Shown here piece by piece: positions 56,325 to 64,000 of a DNA stretch of 64,000 nucleotides (its first letter is position 1; each line of letters opens with the position of its first letter). The stretch lies in the sequence record MK962750. The stretch is one strand, 5' to 3'. A model generated the notes under the pieces. The model was not told where the DNA came from and made no database searches. It worked only from the letters and a program-made list of their open reading frames with translations. The position numbers and the translations under genes were made by a program. This DNA comes from Shigella phage CM8.

Positions 56325-58382
56325 CTACATTTTGAACTTTTTAGACATTCCGTTGATGTTAACCAAAGAAGCTAATATTTGAGAAACTTCGTTTTCCTCT
56401 TCTTTTGATTCTTCTACAAGGAATTGATTAAATCCAGCCATTGGACGAACTTCACCAGTTTCCATTAAATGGTCGCCATCATATACTGATTCTTCTAATT
56501 GGTCAGAAGGAGGAACGATTGTACCTTCGATTAGATACTTGTTATAAGCAGTTTCTTTCATAAAGTACGTACTTACTTTATTAATCTTTAGTAAAATTCC
56601 GCGCGGTAGAATAACTTCAGCTTCTGATGGAAATCCTGATAAATGACCCGGAACGATAACTTTGATTCGCTCAGCTCCTTTAATTACCATACCCACGCTA
56701 GTTTCAGCATCTTCATTAGCATATGTAGAATGACTACCCATATGCATCAAATCTTCTGCATCAACGGAACCTTCTCCTTCACCAGAAAATACTGCGCCGG
56801 AATCATCTAGAGCCATATAGTTTTTACCATGCTCACCGAAGATATTTGGTTTAAGCGATGTCGATACGAAGTTCTTGAAATAGAACATTTTGTTTTCAAT
56901 GTTATGACGCAAAGTTTTAAAGGTAACTTCTTGCCCACGATAAAGAGTAGTTCCTGGAGGAAGAACTGAACCTTTAGCAAATGCAGAATCCAACGTCTCG
57001 ATGTGTTTAATAGCTCGTTCCATATATTCTTCACGGGTAGAATCAGGTTTACCTAAAAGGAACGAGTTCATTTCAACATATGAATCTGCACAATAATCTT
57101 CAATTACATCAGACTCAGCCTGAGTCAGTCCTTTTGGAGTTACTTCAGTGCTTGCGTATTCATATGCCTGAGCAGCAGATTCATTAATCAATTTATAAAT
57201 GCCATTCATGACAAATTGAATAATAGCTGTCTTTTCATCTGGTGTAGCTTTAGAACCTTTAACTAAATCATTGATAATTTTCTTAATAACATCAAAGCTA
57301 TTAGAAATATTAATGTCAGCAAGATCGCTTAAAATTTTATCAGTTTTATAATCAAAAAATTCTTTATTCTTTAAATATTCTTGAGAACCTTGATATGTTA
57401 TATCGCTCTGCAGCTTGATAGATGGATCGCGTAAACGTGCATGGGCTAATGCAATATGATTTCGGAAACTTTCTAGTTCATAATCGTTAGATTTAAAACG
57501 AGAAGCACTCCTCATACCACCGATAGCTCCTTTGCTGAAGTTTGAACCAATCTGAATAACGCCAGAGTTCATTGGTCCTTCTGCTTTATATACCGGAACT
57601 TTAGATTCAAACTCTTGATATTTCTTGGCAGCGAAGCTATCACCCTGGAGTGAAGCATCAACAGTAGAATATTGAGCTTGTGCTGCTAATCGACGACTAA
57701 TTTTAGTTTTCTGAATAACAGCTTGATCAGTGCGCTTATCATTTTCTAAAGCAATAGAAGCAGCAACAGCGACAGCTTTAGGAACAGCATTACCTGTTTT
57801 AACGTCTACATAAACATCACCAACCTTTGATTCAACTTTTGTGAATAACTCAGTTGAAATAGGAGGTACACCTGGAATGTCTTCTAAATTGGCATTTTTA
57901 CGGTAAACCATAATATATGCATACTTTTTATCATAGTCCCAGATTTCCTTTAAAAGAACATATCGACCTGCTCCTTTAGTACGTACTAAACGGTCAGCAA
58001 TAACTTGCATTTGACGAGCTGCGCCATTTGTTTTACTTTTTAGTACGCGGAATAGGCATGCGTCAATTTTATACTGTTTCATTGTTTGAAGAGCAGTATC
58101 AAAAACAGCATTAATGACGCCAATTGGATTTCCACCCAAGTTTCTAAGCTTGACTAACGATAATTTCTCGTTGACACCTATCATTACGATATGCATCATT
58201 TTATCGCCTGGTTTAACGTTTTTATTCGTATCACCACCAGAGGTGTATGTACAAAATCTAAATCCAGGAAGCACGCTTTCTTCGCCGGCTTGAATAGCAA
58301 AAATTTGTGGTATTTTATGCTTAGGATTTAAGTTAACAACCGGCGCCGAAGCGCCGTCAAATAATTCTGTAATAAGTTCCAT
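56325..58382 (-). CDS. Alt-like ADP-ribosyltransferase, paralog A (685 aa)
   Basis: N-terminal region shared with paralog B (MELITELFD..., KIDAC..RQ.QVIADRL, GRYVLLKE.WDYDKKYAY); C-terminal R-S-E type motifs (YRGQEV, FVSTSLKP, EAEVILPRG). Confidence 0.8.
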   Translation of the reverse strand: MELITELFDGASAPVVNLNPKHKIPQIFAIQAGEESVLPGFRFCTYTSGGDTNKNVKPGDKMMHIVMIGVNEKLSLVKLRNLGGNPIGVINAVFDTALQTMKQYKIDACLFRVLKSKTNGAARQMQVIADRLVRTKGAGRYVLLKEIWDYDKKYAYIMVYRKNANLEDIPGVPPISTELFTKVESKVGDVYVDVKTGNAVPKAVAVAASIALENDKRTDQAVIQKTKISRRLAAQAQYSTVDASLQGDSFAAKKYQEFESKVPVYKAEGPMNSGVIQIGSNFSKGAIGGMRSASRFKSNDYELESFRNHIALAHARLRDPSIKLQSDITYQGSQEYLKNKEFFDYKTDKILSDLADINISNSFDVIKKIINDLVKGSKATPDEKTAIIQFVMNGIYKLINESAAQAYEYASTEVTPKGLTQAESDVIEDYCADSYVEMNSFLLGKPDSTREEYMERAIKHIETLDSAFAKGSVLPPGTTLYRGQEVTFKTLRHNIENKMFYFKNFVSTSLKPNIFGEHGKNYMALDDSGAVFSGEGEGSVDAEDLMHMGSHSTYANEDAETSVGMVIKGAERIKVIVPGHLSGFPSEAEVILPRGILLKINKVSTYFMKETAYNKYLIEGTIVPPSDQLEESVYDGDHLMETGEVRPMAGFNQFLVEESKEEENEVSQILASLVNINGMSKKFKM

Positions 58383-58385
58383 GAT

Positions 58386-60482
58386 TTATCCTTGAACGAA
58401 CTTGTAAGGCATGTTTGTAATATCTATGCAAGACGCAATAATTCCAAGAGATGATTCTACTTTCTGTTTAACATTTGATGAAACAAATGATGCAAAGTCA
58501 ACTCTGTCTTCTACTTCAATATCACCTGTCATTGCAACTACTTCGCCGGTTTCCATTAGATGGTCACCGTCATAAATTACCGATTCGGTGAGTTCTTCTG
58601 TGGTCATAACTTCAGCTTGAATGAGTTTTGTATTATTAGATGTTGTTCCGTCATTATTAGAAGCATCAGTTATTTTATTAACTTTAACCATCAATCCGCG
58701 CGGTAGAATAACTTCAGCTTCTGTTGCTATTCCGAGACTTCCTGGATATACAACATTAACTTTATGAGCTCCATCAATTGCCCATCCTATTTGAACTTTA
58801 ACGTATTCAGGATTTTCTTTATACGCTCTTATTTCGTTTGGATTAATAGTTATTCCTTCTTCATTTTTATCAACTGTTAATTCATTGCGAGCTTCTGGTT
58901 CTAAAAGACCAATACCAGCATGTGTAATTCCAAAACGTCCAAAAATGATAGGAGTTAAAGAAGTAGATACAAAATTTCTGAAATAGAACACTTTATTTTT
59001 AACTAGTGCTTCGTATATAGGAGCAGTCATACTTTGAGCACGATAAACTGTAATGCCTTCTGGTATACGGTCACCATTTTCAAAAGCTGAATCTAAATTA
59101 TTTATAGCAGATTCAATTTCTTTTTCACTCATTATATCATATCGTTCTGGATTGTAACGACCTAAAAGAAGATTATTGATGTCTGTATATCCTGAACCAC
59201 AATACTCTCTAATGCCGCGCTTTTGTGATGGAGTATATTTAGAACCATCACGGGCAATAGTAATATCAATCATTGGACCTGCACCAATTCCGGAAAAGCT
59301 ATAAATCATTCGTTTGAGGAATTTAGTTTTTGCTGCATTCCAGGCATTTTTAGTTATTTCTCCCCAGACTTCATCTGGCTGCCCTTTACGAGTTTTATTA
59401 TGTTTATCAAGCCAATTATCTTTATATTCTTCAAATAATTGATTAACAGCTGCTGCGTATTTCTCTAAACATTTTATTGAAGTAGTTGGTTCATTTTTAA
59501 TCGCATTAAGAATTACATCTTTAATTTTTTCTGAAACTTCACCGACTTGACTCATTGGAAAGAATTTATAATCATAGTGAAGTTCATCTGCCGTTCCTTC
59601 AGCAATAATTTTTGCTGCCTTAGTTTTAGAAGCTAATGAATTAATTCCAATTTTCATTTCTTCTGCTTCGGGAATTAAAGGTGCAGTAGCTGGTTTATTA
59701 AAATTAGCTGCTGTAGATTCATACTTCTGGAATAATTCACTTTCAAATCTAGAAGATTCCAATGACTGACTTTGTGCAATTGCTCTACGGGAAATTTTAA
59801 CTTTAACGATTACGGCTTGGTCAGAACGTTTATCATTTTCTTGTGCAATTGATGCTGCAATTGCCTCATTTTTAGTTACTTGGGCTCCAGTATCTTTATT
59901 GATATAAACATCACCGACTTTCGATTCAACTTTAGTAAAGAGCTCGGTACTAATTTCCGGAACTCCTGGAATGTCTTCTAGTGATACATTTTTGCGATGT
60001 ATAAGAATATATGCATACTTTTTATCATAATCCCAGAGTTCCTTAAGAAGGACGTATCTGCCACCTGAACGACTACGGATAAGTCTATCAGCAATAACTT
60101 GAATTTGTCGAGCTTGGCCAGCAGTTTTAGACTTAAGAATACGAAGCATACAAGCATCAATTTTATACTGACGCATTGTTTGCATTGCAACAGTAAAAAC
60201 TGAATTGATATAATTAATTGGGCTTGGACCAAGACCTTTTAATTTAGCAATTGAACCTTTAGCAGTTAATGTAAAAGGAACAATATGCATCATTTTATCG
60301 CCCATTTTTAAATCGCGATTAGTATCACCTCCAGATGTATAGGTACATAAACGAAAGCCTGGTTGTTCAATTGCATCATCAACGTGAACTGAAAAAATTT
60401 GTGGTATTTTCTTCTTTGGATTTAAGTTTGTAATCGGAAGAGTAGTATCTTCGTCAAATAATTCTGTAATGAGTTCCATCAT
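58386..60482 (-). CDS. alt: Alt-like ADP-ribosyltransferase, paralog B (698 aa); positional alt candidate
   Basis: Same architecture; catalytic motifs VYRAQS, FVSTSLTP, EAEVILPRG; minus-strand TATAAATA about 20 nt upstream; second ATG at 60479 is an alternative start. Confidence 0.8.
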   Translation of the reverse strand: MMELITELFDEDTTLPITNLNPKKKIPQIFSVHVDDAIEQPGFRLCTYTSGGDTNRDLKMGDKMMHIVPFTLTAKGSIAKLKGLGPSPINYINSVFTVAMQTMRQYKIDACMLRILKSKTAGQARQIQVIADRLIRSRSGGRYVLLKELWDYDKKYAYILIHRKNVSLEDIPGVPEISTELFTKVESKVGDVYINKDTGAQVTKNEAIAASIAQENDKRSDQAVIVKVKISRRAIAQSQSLESSRFESELFQKYESTAANFNKPATAPLIPEAEEMKIGINSLASKTKAAKIIAEGTADELHYDYKFFPMSQVGEVSEKIKDVILNAIKNEPTTSIKCLEKYAAAVNQLFEEYKDNWLDKHNKTRKGQPDEVWGEITKNAWNAAKTKFLKRMIYSFSGIGAGPMIDITIARDGSKYTPSQKRGIREYCGSGYTDINNLLLGRYNPERYDIMSEKEIESAINNLDSAFENGDRIPEGITVYRAQSMTAPIYEALVKNKVFYFRNFVSTSLTPIIFGRFGITHAGIGLLEPEARNELTVDKNEEGITINPNEIRAYKENPEYVKVQIGWAIDGAHKVNVVYPGSLGIATEAEVILPRGLMVKVNKITDASNNDGTTSNNTKLIQAEVMTTEELTESVIYDGDHLMETGEVVAMTGDIEVEDRVDFASFVSSNVKQKVESSLGIIASCIDITNMPYKFVQG

Positions 60483-60502
60483 ATCCTCTCTAGTGTTTAT
60501 TC

Positions 60503-60510
60503 TATTTATA
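60503..60510 (-). promoter_or_regulatory. late promoter TATAAATA upstream of Alt paralog B
   Basis: Reverse-strand consensus about 20 nt before the Alt-B start; consistent with Alt being made late and packaged. Confidence 0.6.
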
Positions 60511-60516
60511 AAATTA

Positions 60517-60534
60517 AAGGCCCGAAGGCCTTTA
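60517..60534 (-). terminator. hairpin downstream of the 62-aa gene, upstream of Alt-B
   Basis: aaaggcc-cgaa-ggccttt. Confidence 0.5.
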
Positions 60535-60720
60535 ATAATCTATTGGTAATAGAGTACGATATATTTCAAACTTTGGACCTTTTTCATAAGCATCAAAAGT
60601 TTCTGTGAATTTATTATAAGCATATGCATCTATAAATTCAATCATGATTTGCGATACAGAAGTAGAAACATCTCCACCTTCTTTTTGAGCCACGACAATT
60701 GTTTCTAAGTAAGCTTTCAT
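60532..60720 (-). CDS. small hypothetical protein (62 aa)
   Basis: Start overlaps the ligase stop (ATGA); hairpin terminator downstream. Confidence 0.5.
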   Translation of the reverse strand: MKAYLETIVVAQKEGGDVSTSVSQIMIEFIDAYAYNKFTETFDAYEKGPKFEIYRTLLPIDY

Positions 60721-62180
60721 AAACCAGTTACCTCATGAAAATCGCCAAATACATCTTCGAATGTATTAGCTTTAGTTTTATCTTCACGTAAACGAATCGC
60801 AATCGGAAGAAATAATTTAACGTAATCAGTGCGGCCATCAGATTTTAACCAACCGTTGCATTCGCACTCTAGAATTTTTCCAATATAATAATTTTGGTTT
60901 TCCATAATGCGAGTACGGTCAAGTTCATGCGATTTTACACCGGCTTTATCTTTTAAGCCTGAACCAGCATTTACTTTAATTTTTCCACACTCTGACTCAA
61001 GAATAAATCCACCCGCTTTAGTAGGGTCTTTACGGTGAGGATAAATTCCTACAATTTTTAAATCAACATCAATTACTTCTTTAAATTTATAAAGATTTTT
61101 TGAACGAGCATTTTCCCATAATCCATCGATATTTTTGAGAATAATACCTTCAAGACCTTGGTCAATATACTTTTTATAAATTACCTTAGCTTCATCTAGG
61201 TTATTTACTACCTGGTTTTCAATTAAAATTACTTTATCATAACCTGATGTCATTTGTTCTAGTTTAGAAAAACGTACATCATATTTCAAACGAAATGCAG
61301 GAAGACCGTATATTTCTACCAACGGGACATAATCCCAGACCTGAAACTTCATGCATTGTGCTTCTTTTTCAGAAATGGTTCCCTTTAAAGATTTATTAGC
61401 GATTCCATTAGAAGTAGTACGTGATTCAGCTACTTCGGCGAATTCTTTAGCTTTACTAATTTCAGGATAAGCATCAAAAAGAAAATCTAGGCCTTCTGGT
61501 TCCTTTTCAACTTGCTCATGGTATACCAATTCGCCATCAATTAACACACCTTCTGGATGAATCTGGCGAGCTTCTGCAGTCATTTTGATTAACTCTTCCT
61601 TGAGAAGATCTAATCCTAGATATTCATTACCAGCTCGTGATAAAAGACGAACATCATCTAATTCATCACCTCTGACTTCAGCAAAGCACCGAGCTCCATC
61701 AGCTTTTAACTGCGCAAAAGCTGGAAACTTGATATTCTTACTAATGCCTTTTTCATCATAAGAACTTGCCAGCATTTGAGGTTGTTCAGGAATTAAACCT
61801 GGCCAAACTTTGTTTGCAATAGATACTGAAGCACCACATTCAAGGTCTCGCATCATCACTCGACGCAAAACTTCAACATCATCTTTTTTACCATCGGTGA
61901 TGTATCCAGTTAATTCCTCAATTGCCGCATTTCCAGTCAATTTCCGAGTAGCTAACGTGAATTCAATGAAGTCAAGCATATCGGTAAGAGTCAACATTCC
62001 AAAACTCTGGGTAGCAATACCAGGTTTAGGCCATTTCTTGATATAATACTGTAACCCACGAGAATAAGTCAGACGATATACTCGTTTAAGCAATTCATTA
62101 TCTTTATTCTTTTCAAGAATTGCTTGCTTCTGTTTAGTTGAACCAATAGATGCTATTTCGTTCAGAATTTTAAGAATCAT
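60717..62180 (-). CDS. 30: gp30 ATP-dependent DNA ligase
   Basis: 487 aa; adenylation motif KADGAR; N-terminus MILKILNEIASIGSTKQKQ. Confidence 0.95.
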   Translation of the reverse strand: MILKILNEIASIGSTKQKQAILEKNKDNELLKRVYRLTYSRGLQYYIKKWPKPGIATQSFGMLTLTDMLDFIEFTLATRKLTGNAAIEELTGYITDGKKDDVEVLRRVMMRDLECGASVSIANKVWPGLIPEQPQMLASSYDEKGISKNIKFPAFAQLKADGARCFAEVRGDELDDVRLLSRAGNEYLGLDLLKEELIKMTAEARQIHPEGVLIDGELVYHEQVEKEPEGLDFLFDAYPEISKAKEFAEVAESRTTSNGIANKSLKGTISEKEAQCMKFQVWDYVPLVEIYGLPAFRLKYDVRFSKLEQMTSGYDKVILIENQVVNNLDEAKVIYKKYIDQGLEGIILKNIDGLWENARSKNLYKFKEVIDVDLKIVGIYPHRKDPTKAGGFILESECGKIKVNAGSGLKDKAGVKSHELDRTRIMENQNYYIGKILECECNGWLKSDGRTDYVKLFLPIAIRLREDKTKANTFEDVFGDFHEVTGL

Positions 62181-62446
62181 TGTTCATCCTTTAGAGTTTG
62201 GTTTACAGCTCTATTATAAATCAATTCATCATTAAGCTCAGTCAAAGACCTGTGGTACGTGGTTCTAACTTTATTTCCTTGCATCCAGTGCTTGACGTAA
62301 ATGAAACCTTGCTCTACACATTTTTTAAAAATTCGTTCGTCTTTTTGAGCTCGGAATTCTGGATTGCATCTAAAAAATTGATTTACGTGACCGTAATCAC
62401 GTGTAGTATTACCTTCATTTTCATAAATAGTGTGAACAACAAACAT
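62177..62446 (-). CDS. hypothetical protein (89 aa)
   Basis: ATG start; overlaps the ligase start; no motif recognised. Confidence 0.5.
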   Translation of the reverse strand: MFVVHTIYENEGNTTRDYGHVNQFFRCNPEFRAQKDERIFKKCVEQGFIYVKHWMQGNKVRTTYHRSLTELNDELIYNRAVNQTLKDEQ

Positions 62447-63285
62447 TAGAATGCTCCTTGGAAAATATTATCACCACTAGTAGGTCTATTATACAAATAC
62501 TCTATGCCACCAGGTTTAATATAGTTCCATGTCTGAAACGGATGTGTCTGATATGGATGATATAGATGATTATAAGGATTAAATCCAGGAGTTCTCCAGG
62601 TAGTGTTCCAAGGAAAAGAATCGTTTTTGATCATCTTCTCGATTGCATCTTTTATAGCTTTTTCACTATCAAAGCTTTCTTTATTTTCCTTTGGTGAAAA
62701 AAGCTTATTCTCTACATCGTTCCATGTATAAACTCGCTGAGCAGTTTTTGGAATATTGTCACGCTCTCCTCGAGCCATCCAATAAACAGGAACATTTAAT
62801 ATTTCACTCGCGTGATCGCAGTGGTGAGCGAGATCGTCAATATAACAAATTACGTTATATTTCTCTTTTGCCTTTTTGAACAACTCTTCTTTTGAAGAAT
62901 CATGACCACACATCATTACTTCTGAGAAGGCACCAGGAAAAAGAGCATTCAAATTAAATTGACGATTCAGCAGAGCGTCAATAGAATCACCCAGTGCTGT
63001 AACAGCTACAAAATTATAATCTTCTTTTAATTTGTTAATTACACACAGGGCATCTTTATACGGAGACAAGTAACGAATAAAATCTGAACGATTGTATTTT
63101 TCAATTAACTTGACGCCAAGTTCTTCATCACAATTAAAAAGTTTACCTGGAGAAATAAATTTCTCATCTTGGATCATTTTTAAAATATGTTCCAACGGAA
63201 GATTATATTTCTGAGCAAAATAAGGAAGGCCTGATTGCCAGCTTAAACATACTCCATCAATATCAGTTAAAATAGTAGGCTTCAT
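62446..63285 (-). CDS. HAD-superfamily hydrolase-like protein (putative phosphatase/nucleotidase)
   Basis: Motif I ILTDIDGV near the N-terminus, later VTALGD and YIDD; unusual Pro/Tyr/His-rich C-terminal tail (NPYNHLYHPYQTHPFQTWNY). Confidence 0.6.
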   Translation of the reverse strand: MKPTILTDIDGVCLSWQSGLPYFAQKYNLPLEHILKMIQDEKFISPGKLFNCDEELGVKLIEKYNRSDFIRYLSPYKDALCVINKLKEDYNFVAVTALGDSIDALLNRQFNLNALFPGAFSEVMMCGHDSSKEELFKKAKEKYNVICYIDDLAHHCDHASEILNVPVYWMARGERDNIPKTAQRVYTWNDVENKLFSPKENKESFDSEKAIKDAIEKMIKNDSFPWNTTWRTPGFNPYNHLYHPYQTHPFQTWNYIKPGGIEYLYNRPTSGDNIFQGAF

Positions 63286-63740
63286 AGAGAGTCTCTTAAT
63301 AGGTTTAACACATCAATAAATTCAGCTTCTGTTAGTATTGTATCATCTTTTGTTAGACCACTAGCCATGCTGTGCTTCAAAACTTTTCCTTTCGAGGCTT
63401 GTAATGCATCGCGAAAGCCTCTGTTTTGGATCGCTGCTTCAAAATATGCATTTGTGTATAATTCTTTCCACGCTGGGGAGTATCTTGAAAATGGAACTCC
63501 AAGCCAGAAGAGGGTTCCGCGGTCCTGAGCTCTTGCATAAGACCTTCCAGCTTGTTGGGCGGCAAGCCCGGATAACCCAAATATACGACGTTGTTGTTCA
63601 ACATTTTTCACCTTGCATCCTTGGAGGAATCCTTCAAGACCTCCAAATTGAATACCATCCATAACGAAAGGCCAATGGGCGAAATTACTTAATGCACATG
63701 ATGGCCATCTAAAATTGCTTCTAATCTCTAACTCAGACAT
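63282..63740 (-). CDS. candidate NADAR-family (YbiA/DUF1768-like) protein
   Basis: LSNFAHWPFVMDGIQFGGLEGFLQGCKV resembles the NADAR core as I recall it from E. coli YbiA (FSNFAAWP..DG......EHYFQAQKF); ORF track start is TTG, first ATG at 63740. Assignment from memory, not a search. Confidence 0.45.
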   Translation of the reverse strand: MSELEIRSNFRWPSCALSNFAHWPFVMDGIQFGGLEGFLQGCKVKNVEQQRRIFGLSGLAAQQAGRSYARAQDRGTLFWLGVPFSRYSPAWKELYTNAYFEAAIQNRGFRDALQASKGKVLKHSMASGLTKDDTILTEAEFIDVLNLLRDSL

Positions 63741-63939
63741 TTTCAATGCTTATAATTTCAACATCAGCCCAATGACCATAGTTTGGTAGACGAAATTCAA
63801 CTGGCCAGTCACTGCCTTTTTCTAATATAATAGACTTAACTTGTGGTTCTTCGTGTTCATCAGTATACGGATTTTTATCTGTTACTTTATATGTGACCTT
63901 AATGTACTGAATTCCAAAAATCTTATTAATTATATTCAT
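63733..63939 (-). CDS. small hypothetical protein (68 aa)
   Basis: ATG start; overlaps the next gene's start. Confidence 0.5.
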   Translation of the reverse strand: MNIINKIFGIQYIKVTYKVTDKNPYTDEHEEPQVKSIILEKGSDWPVEFRLPNYGHWADVEIISIENV

Positions 63940-63950
63940 ACTATTTCCTT

Positions 63951-64000
63951 TAATCCGTAGATAGGAGATAATTCATCGCCCATACGAAGGTCTTCATTCC
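63951..64000 (-). CDS. partial ORF (C-terminal end only; 5' part beyond window end)
   Basis: Open minus-strand frame ending ...MKTFVWAMNYLLSTD-stop near 63951; coordinates approximate. Confidence 0.3.

What the first reader, a model, noticed from the sequence alone, without database searches (positions are those of the whole stretch)
62177..63939. HAD-like hydrolase and candidate NADAR-family protein immediately upstream of DNA ligase
The 279-aa protein has HAD motif I (ILTDIDGV) and later HAD-like motifs, plus an odd Pro/Tyr/His-rich tail. The next gene (about 152 aa) has an SNF..WP..DG....E....K core that resembles the NADAR (YbiA/DUF1768) family as I recall it. NADAR enzymes have been reported to remove ADP-ribose from DNA bases modified by DarT-type toxins. 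A phage copy beside the ligase, in a genome that also encodes two ADP-ribosyltransferases, would fit a role in countering ADP-ribosylation of phage DNA or in NAD/ADP-ribose turnover. The family call is from memory and the proposed catalytic region is not a perfect match.
Basis: inference. Interest (0 to 1): 0.65.

Follow-up and report, generated by a model that had tools for sequence, protein, structure and literature searches.

The report
Known anti-DarT NADAR beside HAD phosphatase
This stretch is the gene block 30.1-30.4 of a T4-type phage: gene 30.3 is AdfN, an already published enzyme that strips toxic ADP-ribose off phage DNA, and gene 30.2 is an uncharacterised but catalytically intact HAD-type phosphatase that works independently of it.

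Summary
The window is a Tequatrovirus (T4-like phage). Coordinates 62177-63939 hold four minus-strand genes, 30.1, 30.2, 30.3 and 30.4, upstream of DNA ligase (gene 30).

- It is 98% identical to T4 gp30.3.
- It hits Pfam Phage_30_3 at E 1.7e-69.
- Its predicted fold matches only the three solved NADAR structures.
- It keeps E36, K43, H123 and the C-terminal helix.

T4 gp30.3 has already been published as AdfN. It is a NADAR DNA ADP-ribosylglycohydrolase that neutralises the DarTG1 defence (Nat Commun 2025; Toxins 2024).

The 279-aa protein is gp30.2. It is a HAD-fold phosphatase with a helical cap inserted after motif I (C1 type), and all four HAD motifs are conserved: D8xD10, T96, K132 and D150-D151. 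Its family (PHROG 420, more than 1400 clusters) lies closest to NT5C deoxyribonucleotidases. It stays next to the ligase far more consistently than next to the NADAR.

Published T4 transposon data show that 30.2 is dispensable and is not needed against DarTG1. Its substrate is unknown; a nucleoside monophosphate is my best guess. Its disordered tail carries a conserved C-terminal motif of unknown function.

Interest is low: the main point is already known.

The parts
63282..63740 (-). Gene 30.3 = adfN. Encodes a 152-aa phage-type NADAR DNA ADP-ribosylglycohydrolase, full length, with E36, K43 and H123. A TTG at 63746 would add 2 residues.
   Evidence: Pfam PF08010 E 1.7e-69. 149/152 identical to T4 gp30.3. 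AF2 model pLDDT 84. Top PDB matches are YbiA 2b3w, 8bat and 8bau. Invariant residues. Function from the literature.
62446..63285 (-). Gene 30.2. Encodes a 279-aa HAD-superfamily phosphatase with a C1 cap; PHROG 420.
62701..63285 (-). gp30.2 catalytic core, residues 1-195: a Rossmann-like HAD domain with a helical C1 cap inserted between motif I and motif II (residues ~12-88).
   Evidence: Secondary structure and pLDDT. The core is what is conserved in all 30 aligned relatives and in the 190-220-aa forms.
62446..62700 (-). gp30.2 C-terminal tail, residues 196-279: one helix (202-220), then a disordered segment rich in aromatic residues, Pro and Asn. Absent from the short homologues.
   Evidence: pLDDT below 50 for 239-279. 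Composition. Length distribution and alignment.
62479..62508 (-). Conserved near-C-terminal short motif G-I-E-Y-L-Y-N-R-P-T (family pattern G(T)G[IVL]EY[LWY]xxxQPT); function unknown.
   Evidence: Found 6-10 residues from the C-terminus in 16 of 100 cluster representatives, although the linker before it cannot be aligned. It is the only occurrence in the window.
62177..62446 (-). Gene 30.1. Encodes an 89-aa DUF3045 protein of unknown function, lying between 30.2 and the ligase.
   Evidence: Pfam PF11243 E 2.9e-64. Annotated 30.1 in AR1 and T4. Present in only 21 of 78 related loci.
63733..63939 (-). Gene 30.4. Encodes a 68-aa protein of unknown function. Its stop overlaps the 30.3 start by 8 nt.
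   Evidence: PHROG 2042 E 1.5e-33. Annotation. Junction sequences.
63377..63604 (-). 75-aa ORF in another frame inside 30.3. It corresponds to T4's annotated gene 30.3'.
   Evidence: ORF list. The T4 record annotates 30.3' as 'internal translation, in a different reading frame, within gene 30.3'. Not tested further.
60717..62180 (-). Gene 30, ATP-dependent DNA ligase (context: the conserved downstream neighbour of 30.2).
   Evidence: Pfam PF01068 E 3.3e-32. The ligase lies within 700 bp downstream of the HAD gene in 66 of 78 related loci.

Best explanation
The interval is the tightly packed, co-oriented early-gene block 30.4-30.3-30.2-30.1 of a T4-like phage, running into the DNA ligase gene.

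**gp30.3 is AdfN.** It is a minimal, core-only NADAR enzyme. When a host DarT1 toxin ADP-ribosylates guanine in replicating phage DNA, AdfN hydrolyses the N-glycosidic link. This releases ADP-ribose, restores guanine, and lets replication continue. This mechanism is shown in the literature for the 98%-identical T4 protein. Here I only show that the window's copy is full length with the catalytic residues intact.

**gp30.2 is a separate enzyme.** It is an Mg-dependent HAD phosphomonoesterase whose Asp8 would form the phospho-aspartyl intermediate. A helical C1 cap closes over a small substrate. Its family is closest to the NT5C 5'(3')-deoxyribonucleotidases, so the most likely substrate is a (deoxy)nucleoside monophosphate. 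That would make it a dispensable nucleotide-pool enzyme; this step is inferred, not shown. It does not act with AdfN.

Sub-confidences:
- 30.3 = functional AdfN orthologue: 0.97.
- 30.2 = active HAD phosphatase: 0.9.
- 30.2 is independent of AdfN: 0.85.
- Nucleotide substrate for 30.2: 0.45.
For: **Phage identity and gene names:**

**gp30.3**
- PF08010 at 232 bits.
- 149/152 identical to T4 gp30.3.
- E36, K43 and H123 invariant in the alignment.
- The model has H123 in the last strand and an intact C-terminal helix at 138-151.
- Foldseek's top three hits are the three NADAR structures, and nothing else scores below E = 1.
- The profile's best PDB sequence hit is YbiA across the SNF..WP..DG..E..K motif.
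- Experimental function of the T4 protein: it rescues RB69 on DarTG1, and E36A, K43A and the C-terminal truncation all impair it. It also removes ADP-ribose from DarT1-modified DNA in vitro (PMC11825919).
- It hydrolyses G-ADPr but not T-ADPr (PMC11125620) or C-ADPr (PMC12945103).
- Transposon insertions in 30.3 are lost on DarTG1 hosts: log2FC -7.25, q = 0.

**gp30.2**
- Motifs D8, D10, G11 and K132 are invariant; T96, D150 and D151 are at least 90% conserved.
- Motif I is present in 95 of 100 homologues and the DD of motif IV in 92 of 100.
- Confident model of the core.
- NT5C is the nearest family. The best PDB profile hit is cytosolic 5'(3')-deoxyribonucleotidase, E 0.016, with invariant W16 aligned to the Phe after motif I.
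- Deoxyribonucleotidases give the lowest rmsd and highest TMt among the Foldseek hits.
- 41 of 91 distant family members hit Pfam NT5C (best E 4.2e-10), against 21 for Hydrolase and 18 for HAD_2.
- One bridging member passes the NT5C cut-off.
- Distant members sit beside thymidylate synthase, dCMP deaminase and thymidine kinase.

**Independence from AdfN**
- 30.2 insertions are neutral on DarTG1 hosts: log2FC -0.12, q = 1.
- 41 loci carry the HAD gene with no NADAR within at least 1.6 kb upstream.
Against: **gp30.3.** Nothing argues against it. AdfN works fully only during T-even infection, for unknown reasons, so part of its mechanism is still open.

**gp30.2.**
- The window protein itself reaches no Pfam or NCBIfam threshold.
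- No T4 5'-nucleotidase activity is known to me.
- No phenotype was seen on K-12 (72 of 72 TA sites tolerated) or in LB versus M9 (log2FC -0.10), so there is no functional read-out at all.
- A dNMP phosphatase would seem wasteful in a phage that recycles host dNMPs.
Confidence: 0.8

Rival explanations
1. gp30.2 is the missing T-even-specific partner of AdfN. It would process a product of de-ADP-ribosylation, or otherwise enable AdfN. The two overlapping genes would then form one anti-DarT module.
For: The 30.3 stop overlaps the 30.2 start. The NADAR gene is immediately upstream of the HAD gene in 22 loci, including distant Acinetobacter phages. The AdfN authors suggest an unidentified T-even protein may be needed for full activity.
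Against: In the T4 transposon screen on DarTG1, 30.2 insertions are neutral (log2FC -0.12, p 0.61) while 30.3 drops by 7.25 log2. 41 related loci have the HAD gene and no NADAR nearby. Neighbours in such loci are not hidden NADARs. NADAR hydrolysis yields ADP-ribose and intact guanine, so nothing is left for a phosphomonoesterase to repair. Overlapping start and stop codons are the rule for every gene in this block.
Confidence: 0.04
2. gp30.2 works with the DNA ligase as a nucleic-acid end-healing phosphatase. For example, it could remove 3'-phosphates at nicks so that gp30 can seal them, like the HAD phosphatase domain of polynucleotide kinase.
Against: Gene order is strongly conserved among T4-like phages in general, and the loci are not independent, so adjacency is weak evidence. 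Seven distant loci with full flanks have no ligase within 5 kb. The protein has a large C1 cap, which in HAD enzymes usually encloses small molecules, whereas Pnkp-type end phosphatases are capless (established HAD classification; from my own knowledge). T4 already has PseT. NT5C, not HAD_PNKP, is the Pfam family that relatives hit: 41 against 1 of 91.
Confidence: 0.1
3. gp30.2 is a dNMP phosphatase used as an anti-defence or pool-shaping enzyme. It would be analogous to T5 Dmp, which blocks Kongming signalling by removing dAMP, or to PBS1 Dtm, which removes dTMP.
For: NT5C-like affinity. There are precedents for phage HAD nucleotidases with these roles (for T5 Dmp and Kongming; for PBS1 Dtm, an mdN-like fold). 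T4-like phages encode a dNMP kinase, the type of enzyme that triggers Kongming. Dispensability on a defence-poor K-12 host fits an anti-defence gene.
Against: There is no sequence relation to T5 Dmp beyond motif I (hhalign probability 1.4%). No substrate or phenotype data exist. In the part of the screen data I read, gene 30.2 was neutral in the library comparison and on DarTG1 and LB versus M9. It is an early gene in a phage that needs dNMPs.
Confidence: 0.15
4. gp30.3 mainly degrades soluble ADP-ribose-derived immune signals, or reverses the phage's own Alt/Mod ADP-ribosylation, rather than repairing DNA.
For: A 2022 comparative study argued that phage NADARs probably prefer low-molecular-weight ADPr derivatives, and noted their co-expression with phage ARTs. 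Two Alt paralogues lie 1-5 kb away.
Against: Later experiments show DNA G-ADPr hydrolysis in vitro and strict conditional essentiality on DarTG1. alt insertions are neutral on DarTG1. An additional soluble substrate is not excluded.
Confidence: 0.05

Closest known systems
T4 AdfN (gp30.3), anti-DarT factor NADAR (Johannesman et al., Nat Commun 2025, PMC11825919; Toxins 2024, PMC11125620)
   Same: 149/152 identical, same length, and same position between 30.4 and 30.2. E36, K43, H123 and the C-terminal helix are all present.
   Different: Three substitutions (Q22H, K106R, I124M). None falls at a residue reported as catalytic. Activity of this allele has not been measured.
DarG1 / DarT-associated NADAR (BC4488 family; e.g. 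Geobacter lovleyi 8bat) and E. coli YbiA (2b3w)
   Same: Same YbiA fold and the same SNF..WP..DG..E..K active-site motif. Same reaction on guanine-ADPr according to the literature.
   Different: The phage protein is the bare core domain, without the extra N-terminal elements of DarG1. It has His where DarG1 has Asp and YbiA has Glu in the last strand. It is an orphan with no DarT partner, and it cannot act as an antitoxin in uninfected cells.
NT5C family 5'(3')-deoxyribonucleotidases (cdN/mdN, PF06941; S. epidermidis 3bwv)
   Same: HAD core plus a helical C1 cap. DxDGV motif I followed by an aromatic residue (W16 aligned to Phe). It is the nearest Pfam family for the wider gp30.2 family.
   Different: About 16-21% identity. 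The window protein does not reach the Pfam cut-off. It has an extra 84-residue tail. Substrate untested.
T5 Dmp deoxynucleoside-5'-monophosphatase and PBS1 Dtm dTMP phosphatase
   Same: Phage-encoded HAD phosphatases acting on dNMPs. They are the functional precedents for a phage nucleotidase.
   Different: No detectable homology to T5 Dmp beyond motif I. PBS1 Dtm was not compared. No activity or phenotype is known for gp30.2.
T4 PseT (Pnkp) 3'-phosphatase domain
   Different: Pnkp's phosphatase has no cap and acts on polynucleotide ends. gp30.2 has a ~75-residue C1 cap and no kinase domain.

Membership tests
NADAR superfamily, phage gp30.3/AdfN subfamily | Sequence match to the family profile (Pfam PF08010 Phage_30_3) above the curated cut-off | tested here: met
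   232.4 bits against a cut-off of 36, E 1.7e-69, covering profile positions 1-138 of 138.
NADAR superfamily, phage gp30.3/AdfN subfamily | YbiA fold: a helical core flanked by small beta-sheets | tested here: met
   AF2 model pLDDT 84, pTM 0.82. Foldseek's top three hits are YbiA 2b3w (E 1.8e-4, TM 0.63), G. lovleyi NADAR 8bat and P. nicotianae NADAR 8bau. All other hits have E > 1.
NADAR superfamily, phage gp30.3/AdfN subfamily | Catalytic Glu and Lys (E36 and K43 in AdfN) within the SNF..WP..DG..E..K motif | tested here: met
   E36 and K43 are invariant in 10 homologues down to 40% identity. They are present in the window protein. The motif aligns with YbiA.
NADAR superfamily, phage gp30.3/AdfN subfamily | [quoted passage not shown] | tested here: met
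   H123 is invariant and lies in the last strand, 120-123, of the model. The criterion comes from PMC11125620.
NADAR superfamily, phage gp30.3/AdfN subfamily | Intact C-terminal helix (its loss in RB69 makes the phage DarTG1-sensitive) | tested here: met
   Full 152 residues, identical to T4 over the last 28. Helix at 138-151 in the model.
NADAR superfamily, phage gp30.3/AdfN subfamily | Hydrolysis of guanine-N2-ADP-ribose on DNA and protection from DarTG1 | not testable with these tools
   Shown for the 98%-identical T4 protein. Not measured for this allele.
HAD (haloacid dehalogenase-like) phosphatase superfamily | Motif I DxDx(T/V), carrying the nucleophile and the general acid/base Asp | tested here: met
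   D8-I-D10-G-V. D8, D10 and G11 are invariant in 30 sequences. Present in 95 of 100 homologues. D and D are invariant in 91 distant members.
HAD (haloacid dehalogenase-like) phosphatase superfamily | Motif II Ser/Thr at the end of strand 2, motif III Lys, and motif IV acidic pair | tested here: met
   T96 (at least 90% conserved) ends strand 91-96. K132 is invariant. D150-D151 (at least 90% conserved) end strand 145-150. K and the first D are also conserved in the distant set.
HAD (haloacid dehalogenase-like) phosphatase superfamily | Rossmann-like HAD fold | tested here: met
HAD (haloacid dehalogenase-like) phosphatase superfamily | Match to a curated HAD profile above its cut-off | tested here: not met
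   The window protein has no HAD hit in Pfam or NCBIfam. 8 of 30 relatives hit PF00702 below threshold. The family is simply not covered by a curated model. Motifs and fold are met, so I still file it as HAD.
HAD (haloacid dehalogenase-like) phosphatase superfamily | Mg-dependent phosphoryl transfer through an aspartyl-phosphate intermediate | not testable with these tools
   Needs an enzyme assay with the D8N control.
NT5C 5'(3')-deoxyribonucleotidase family (PF06941) | Profile match above the gathering score | tested here: not met
   No hit for the window protein. 5 of 30 close relatives are sub-threshold, best E 1.2e-4. 41 of 91 distant members hit at E <= 0.01, best 4.2e-10. One member scores 25.5 bits against a cut-off of 24.8. 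gp30.2 is therefore a neighbour family, not a member.
NT5C 5'(3')-deoxyribonucleotidase family (PF06941) | Closest structural neighbours are deoxyribonucleotidases | tested here: inconclusive
NT5C 5'(3')-deoxyribonucleotidase family (PF06941) | Base-stacking aromatic residue shortly after motif I (the Phe in DGVLADF) | tested here: met
   W16 is invariant in gp30.2 relatives and at least 90% conserved in distant members. It aligns with that Phe of mouse cdN. That this Phe stacks on the base is from my memory of the mdN/cdN structures and was not checked here.
NT5C 5'(3')-deoxyribonucleotidase family (PF06941) | dNMP phosphatase activity | not testable with these tools
   No assay data were found. 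'gp30.2' returns no paper in the library.

The most novel reading that the evidence does not exclude
gp30.2 and the large phage-only PHROG 420 family could be a nucleotide-pool or anti-defence dNMP phosphatase. In that reading it is a T4-lineage counterpart of T5 Dmp (the anti-Kongming factor), and its conserved C-terminal GIEYL..QPT motif tethers it to a replication or ligase partner. A second variant is that it is a ligase-coupled end-healing phosphatase. Either would give a function to a gene conserved next to the ligase across T4-like phages for which no phenotype is known.
Probability: 0.15. Interest if true: 0.5.

Novelty: already known. Interest (0 to 1): 0.15.

Why it matters
The main point of the finding is a phage NADAR that undoes DarT-type ADP-ribosylation of DNA. 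It is correct, but it was published for this gene family in 2024-2025, so the window adds only one more intact allele.

What remains open is modest. gp30.2 belongs to a large HAD phosphatase family (more than 1400 clusters at 50% identity) with no curated profile, no known substrate and no phenotype. It is kept next to the DNA ligase in most T4-like phages. Assigning its substrate would fill a gap in the T4 gene map. Given the T5 Dmp precedent, it might also reveal another nucleotide-level counter-defence.

Tried and rejected
1. **Single-sequence searches against PDB** gave only noise for both proteins. Profiles were needed, and even then the sequence hits were marginal: YbiA E 0.055, cdN E 0.016.
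2. **NCBIfam** has no model for any of the four proteins.
3. **gp30.2 as AdfN's missing partner.** I considered this because of the gene overlap and the authors' remark. I rejected it on the T4 transposon data and on co-occurrence.
4. **Hidden NADARs.** I checked whether the small ORFs next to the HAD gene in NADAR-less loci are divergent NADARs. They are not.
5. **Homology to T5 Dmp.** Only motif I aligns, with probability 1.4%.
6. **Fusion proteins in the family as functional clues.** Pfam found nothing in the extra regions. PHROGs found one fusion to a DNA-polymerase-like domain (P0172). It is a single metagenomic sequence and could be a gene-calling artefact.
7. **Promoter and terminator scan of 60000-64000.** Nothing above the shuffled expectation.
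9. **Literature on gp30.2.** None found.


Full report
**What the region is.** The DNA from 60500 to 64000 matches 655 phage records. Nearly all are Tequatrovirus and other T4-like phages, at 95-99% identity. All the genes lie on the minus strand. By comparison with the annotated phages AR1 and T4 they are:

| Gene | Coordinates | Notes |
|---|---|---|
| alt (two tandem paralogues) | 56325-58382, 58386-60482 | both hit PF03496 |
| alt.1 | 60532-60720 | |
| 30, DNA ligase | 60717-62180 | PF01068 |
| 30.1 | 62177-62446 | DUF3045 |
| 30.2 | 62446-63285 | |
| 30.3 | 63282-63740 | |
| 30.4 | 63733-63939 | |

Every junction in the 30.4-to-30 block is a start/stop overlap. No promoter- or terminator-like sites exceed the shuffled expectation. 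This fits a single transcription unit. The finding's interval therefore contains four genes, and 30.1 separates the HAD-like gene from the ligase.

**Gene 30.3: the NADAR call is right, and already published.**
- The 152-aa product hits Pfam Phage_30_3 at 232 bits, E 1.7e-69.
- It differs from T4 gp30.3 at 3 of 152 positions.
- A 10-sequence alignment reaching 40% identity keeps E36, K43 and H123 invariant.
- A profile of that alignment finds E. coli YbiA as its best PDB sequence hit.
- The AlphaFold model (pLDDT 84) places H123 in the last strand and shows an intact C-terminal helix at 138-151.
- The model's only meaningful PDB matches are the three NADAR structures: YbiA 2b3w, Geobacter lovleyi NADAR 8bat and Phytophthora NADAR 8bau.

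The literature settles the function:
- T4 30.3 was renamed adfN (anti-DarT factor NADAR).
- It rescues the naturally truncated RB69 on DarTG1 hosts.
- The E36A and K43A mutants and the C-terminal truncation are all impaired.
- The purified protein removes ADP-ribose from DarT1-modified DNA (PMC11825919).
- It hydrolyses guanine-ADPr but not thymine-ADPr (PMC11125620) or cytidine-ADPr (PMC12945103).
- His in the last strand marks phage NADARs.
- A T4 transposon screen found 30.3 dispensable on K-12 but lost on DarTG1: log2FC -7.25, q = 0 (preprint 10.1101/2025.11.20.689424).

One open point remains. AdfN does not work as an antitoxin in uninfected cells, and it rescues non-T-even phages only weakly.

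**Gene 30.2: a real HAD phosphatase of an uncurated family.** Pfam and NCBIfam give nothing for this protein. PHROG 420, of unknown function, matches at E 1.2e-92. One hundred homologues were found, all from T4-like phages and metagenomes, with lengths of 176-347 aa.

In a 30-sequence alignment:
- D8, D10, G11 (motif I) and K132 (motif III) are invariant.
- T96 (motif II) and D150-D151 (motif IV) are at least 90% conserved.
- W16, R108 and N111 are also invariant.

**Which HAD subfamily?** Five lines of evidence point to NT5C 5'(3')-deoxyribonucleotidases as the nearest known family:
1. The family profile's best PDB sequence hit is mouse cytosolic deoxyribonucleotidase, E 0.016. The alignment runs through the cap, with W16 opposite the Phe that follows motif I.
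3. A profile search of 1.84 billion representatives found 1435 clusters at E <= 1e-3.
4. Of 91 distant members, 41 hit Pfam NT5C (best E 4.2e-10), against 21 for Hydrolase and 18 for HAD_2.
5. One member passes the NT5C cut-off.

**Context.** I examined 78 loci holding a gp30.2 relative.

| Neighbour | Loci (of 78) |
|---|---|
| Ligase within 700 bp downstream, same strand | 66 |
| Ligase just upstream (rearranged loci) | 4 |
| No ligase in the flanks (one is cut off by the end of its contig) | 8 |
| NADAR within 5 kb upstream | 35 (22 directly adjacent) |
| No NADAR, with at least 1.6 kb of upstream sequence available | 41 |

In the ligase-less distant loci the neighbours include thymidylate synthase, dCMP deaminase, thymidine kinase, RNA ligase, PhoH and the clamp loader. 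The loci are not phylogenetically independent, and T4-like gene order is conservative, so adjacency to the ligase is only a weak functional hint.

**Is gp30.2 linked to AdfN?** No. In the DarTG1 table of the T4 screen, 30.2 has log2FC -0.12 (p 0.61), whereas 30.3 has -7.25. I identified that table by its position before Data S8 and by the 30.3 signal. In addition:
- 30.2 tolerates insertions at 72 of 72 TA sites.
- It shows no effect in LB versus M9.
- Small ORFs beside the HAD gene in NADAR-less phages are not cryptic NADARs.

**Likely mechanism of gp30.2 (inferred).** Asp8 attacks a phosphomonoester bound under the closed cap. Asp10 acts as the acid/base. Mg2+ is held by D8, D10 and D150/D151, and K132 and T96 bind the phosphate. 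A (deoxy)nucleoside monophosphate is the best guess for the substrate.

Phage precedents exist. T5 Dmp depletes dAMP and blocks Kongming immunity. PBS1 Dtm is an mdN-like dTMP phosphatase. gp30.2 is not detectably related to T5 Dmp beyond motif I.

**The tail.** Residues 196-279 form one helix followed by a disordered stretch rich in aromatic residues, Pro and Asn. The linker cannot be aligned between relatives. A motif, G(T)G[IVL]EY[LWY]xxxQPT, nevertheless recurs 6-10 residues from the C-terminus in 16 of 100 cluster representatives, all of them long forms. The short forms of 196-235 aa lack the tail. This looks like a docking motif; its partner is unknown.

**Verdict.** The NADAR part is already known (AdfN). 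The HAD protein is an uncharacterised member of a known superfamily, with no detected phenotype. Overall interest is low.

Noticed in passing
window 62479-62508 (-), within the gp30.2 tail at 62446-62700: A short motif, GIEYLYNRPT (family pattern G(T)G[IVL]EY[LWY]xxxQPT), is conserved 6-10 residues from the C-terminus in 16 of 100 homologue clusters. The disordered linker before it cannot be aligned. It may be a docking motif; the partner is unknown.
   Followed up: partly
window 63377-63604 (-): A 75-aa ORF in a different frame lies inside gene 30.3. T4's record annotates the same ORF as gene 30.3' ('internal translation, in a different reading frame'). Whether it is expressed or conserved as a protein was not examined.
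   Followed up: no
window 56325-58382 and 58386-60482 (-): There are two full-length tandem Alt ADP-ribosyltransferase paralogues (685 and 698 aa, both PF03496), as in phage AR1. T4 has one alt plus the remnants alt.-1 and alt.-2 of a duplicated copy.
   Followed up: partly
window 63733-63939 (-), gene 30.4: In the published T4 transposon screen, insertions in 30.4 are moderately depleted on DarTG1 (log2FC -1.79, q 0.014). This may be a polar effect on the overlapping downstream 30.3, or a role of its own.
   Followed up: no
protein P0172 (metagenomic relative of gp30.2): This is a 591-aa protein. A DNA-polymerase-like region (PHROG 24943, residues 11-263) is fused to a gp30.2-type HAD domain (residues 386-586). 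It is a single sequence and may be a gene-calling artefact.
   Followed up: partly
window 60532-60720 (-), gene alt.1: The 62-aa product matches Pfam 'Phage_blade' (PF24647, E 7.5e-29). The gene sits between alt and the ligase, and it recurs after the ligase in an Acinetobacter phage contig.
   Followed up: no
locus L066 3022-4671: A 549-aa thymidylate-synthase homologue lies next to a distant gp30.2 relative. The Pfam domain is split into two stretches, with the best one at residues 378-549. This suggests a large insertion or an extra N-terminal region.
   Followed up: no
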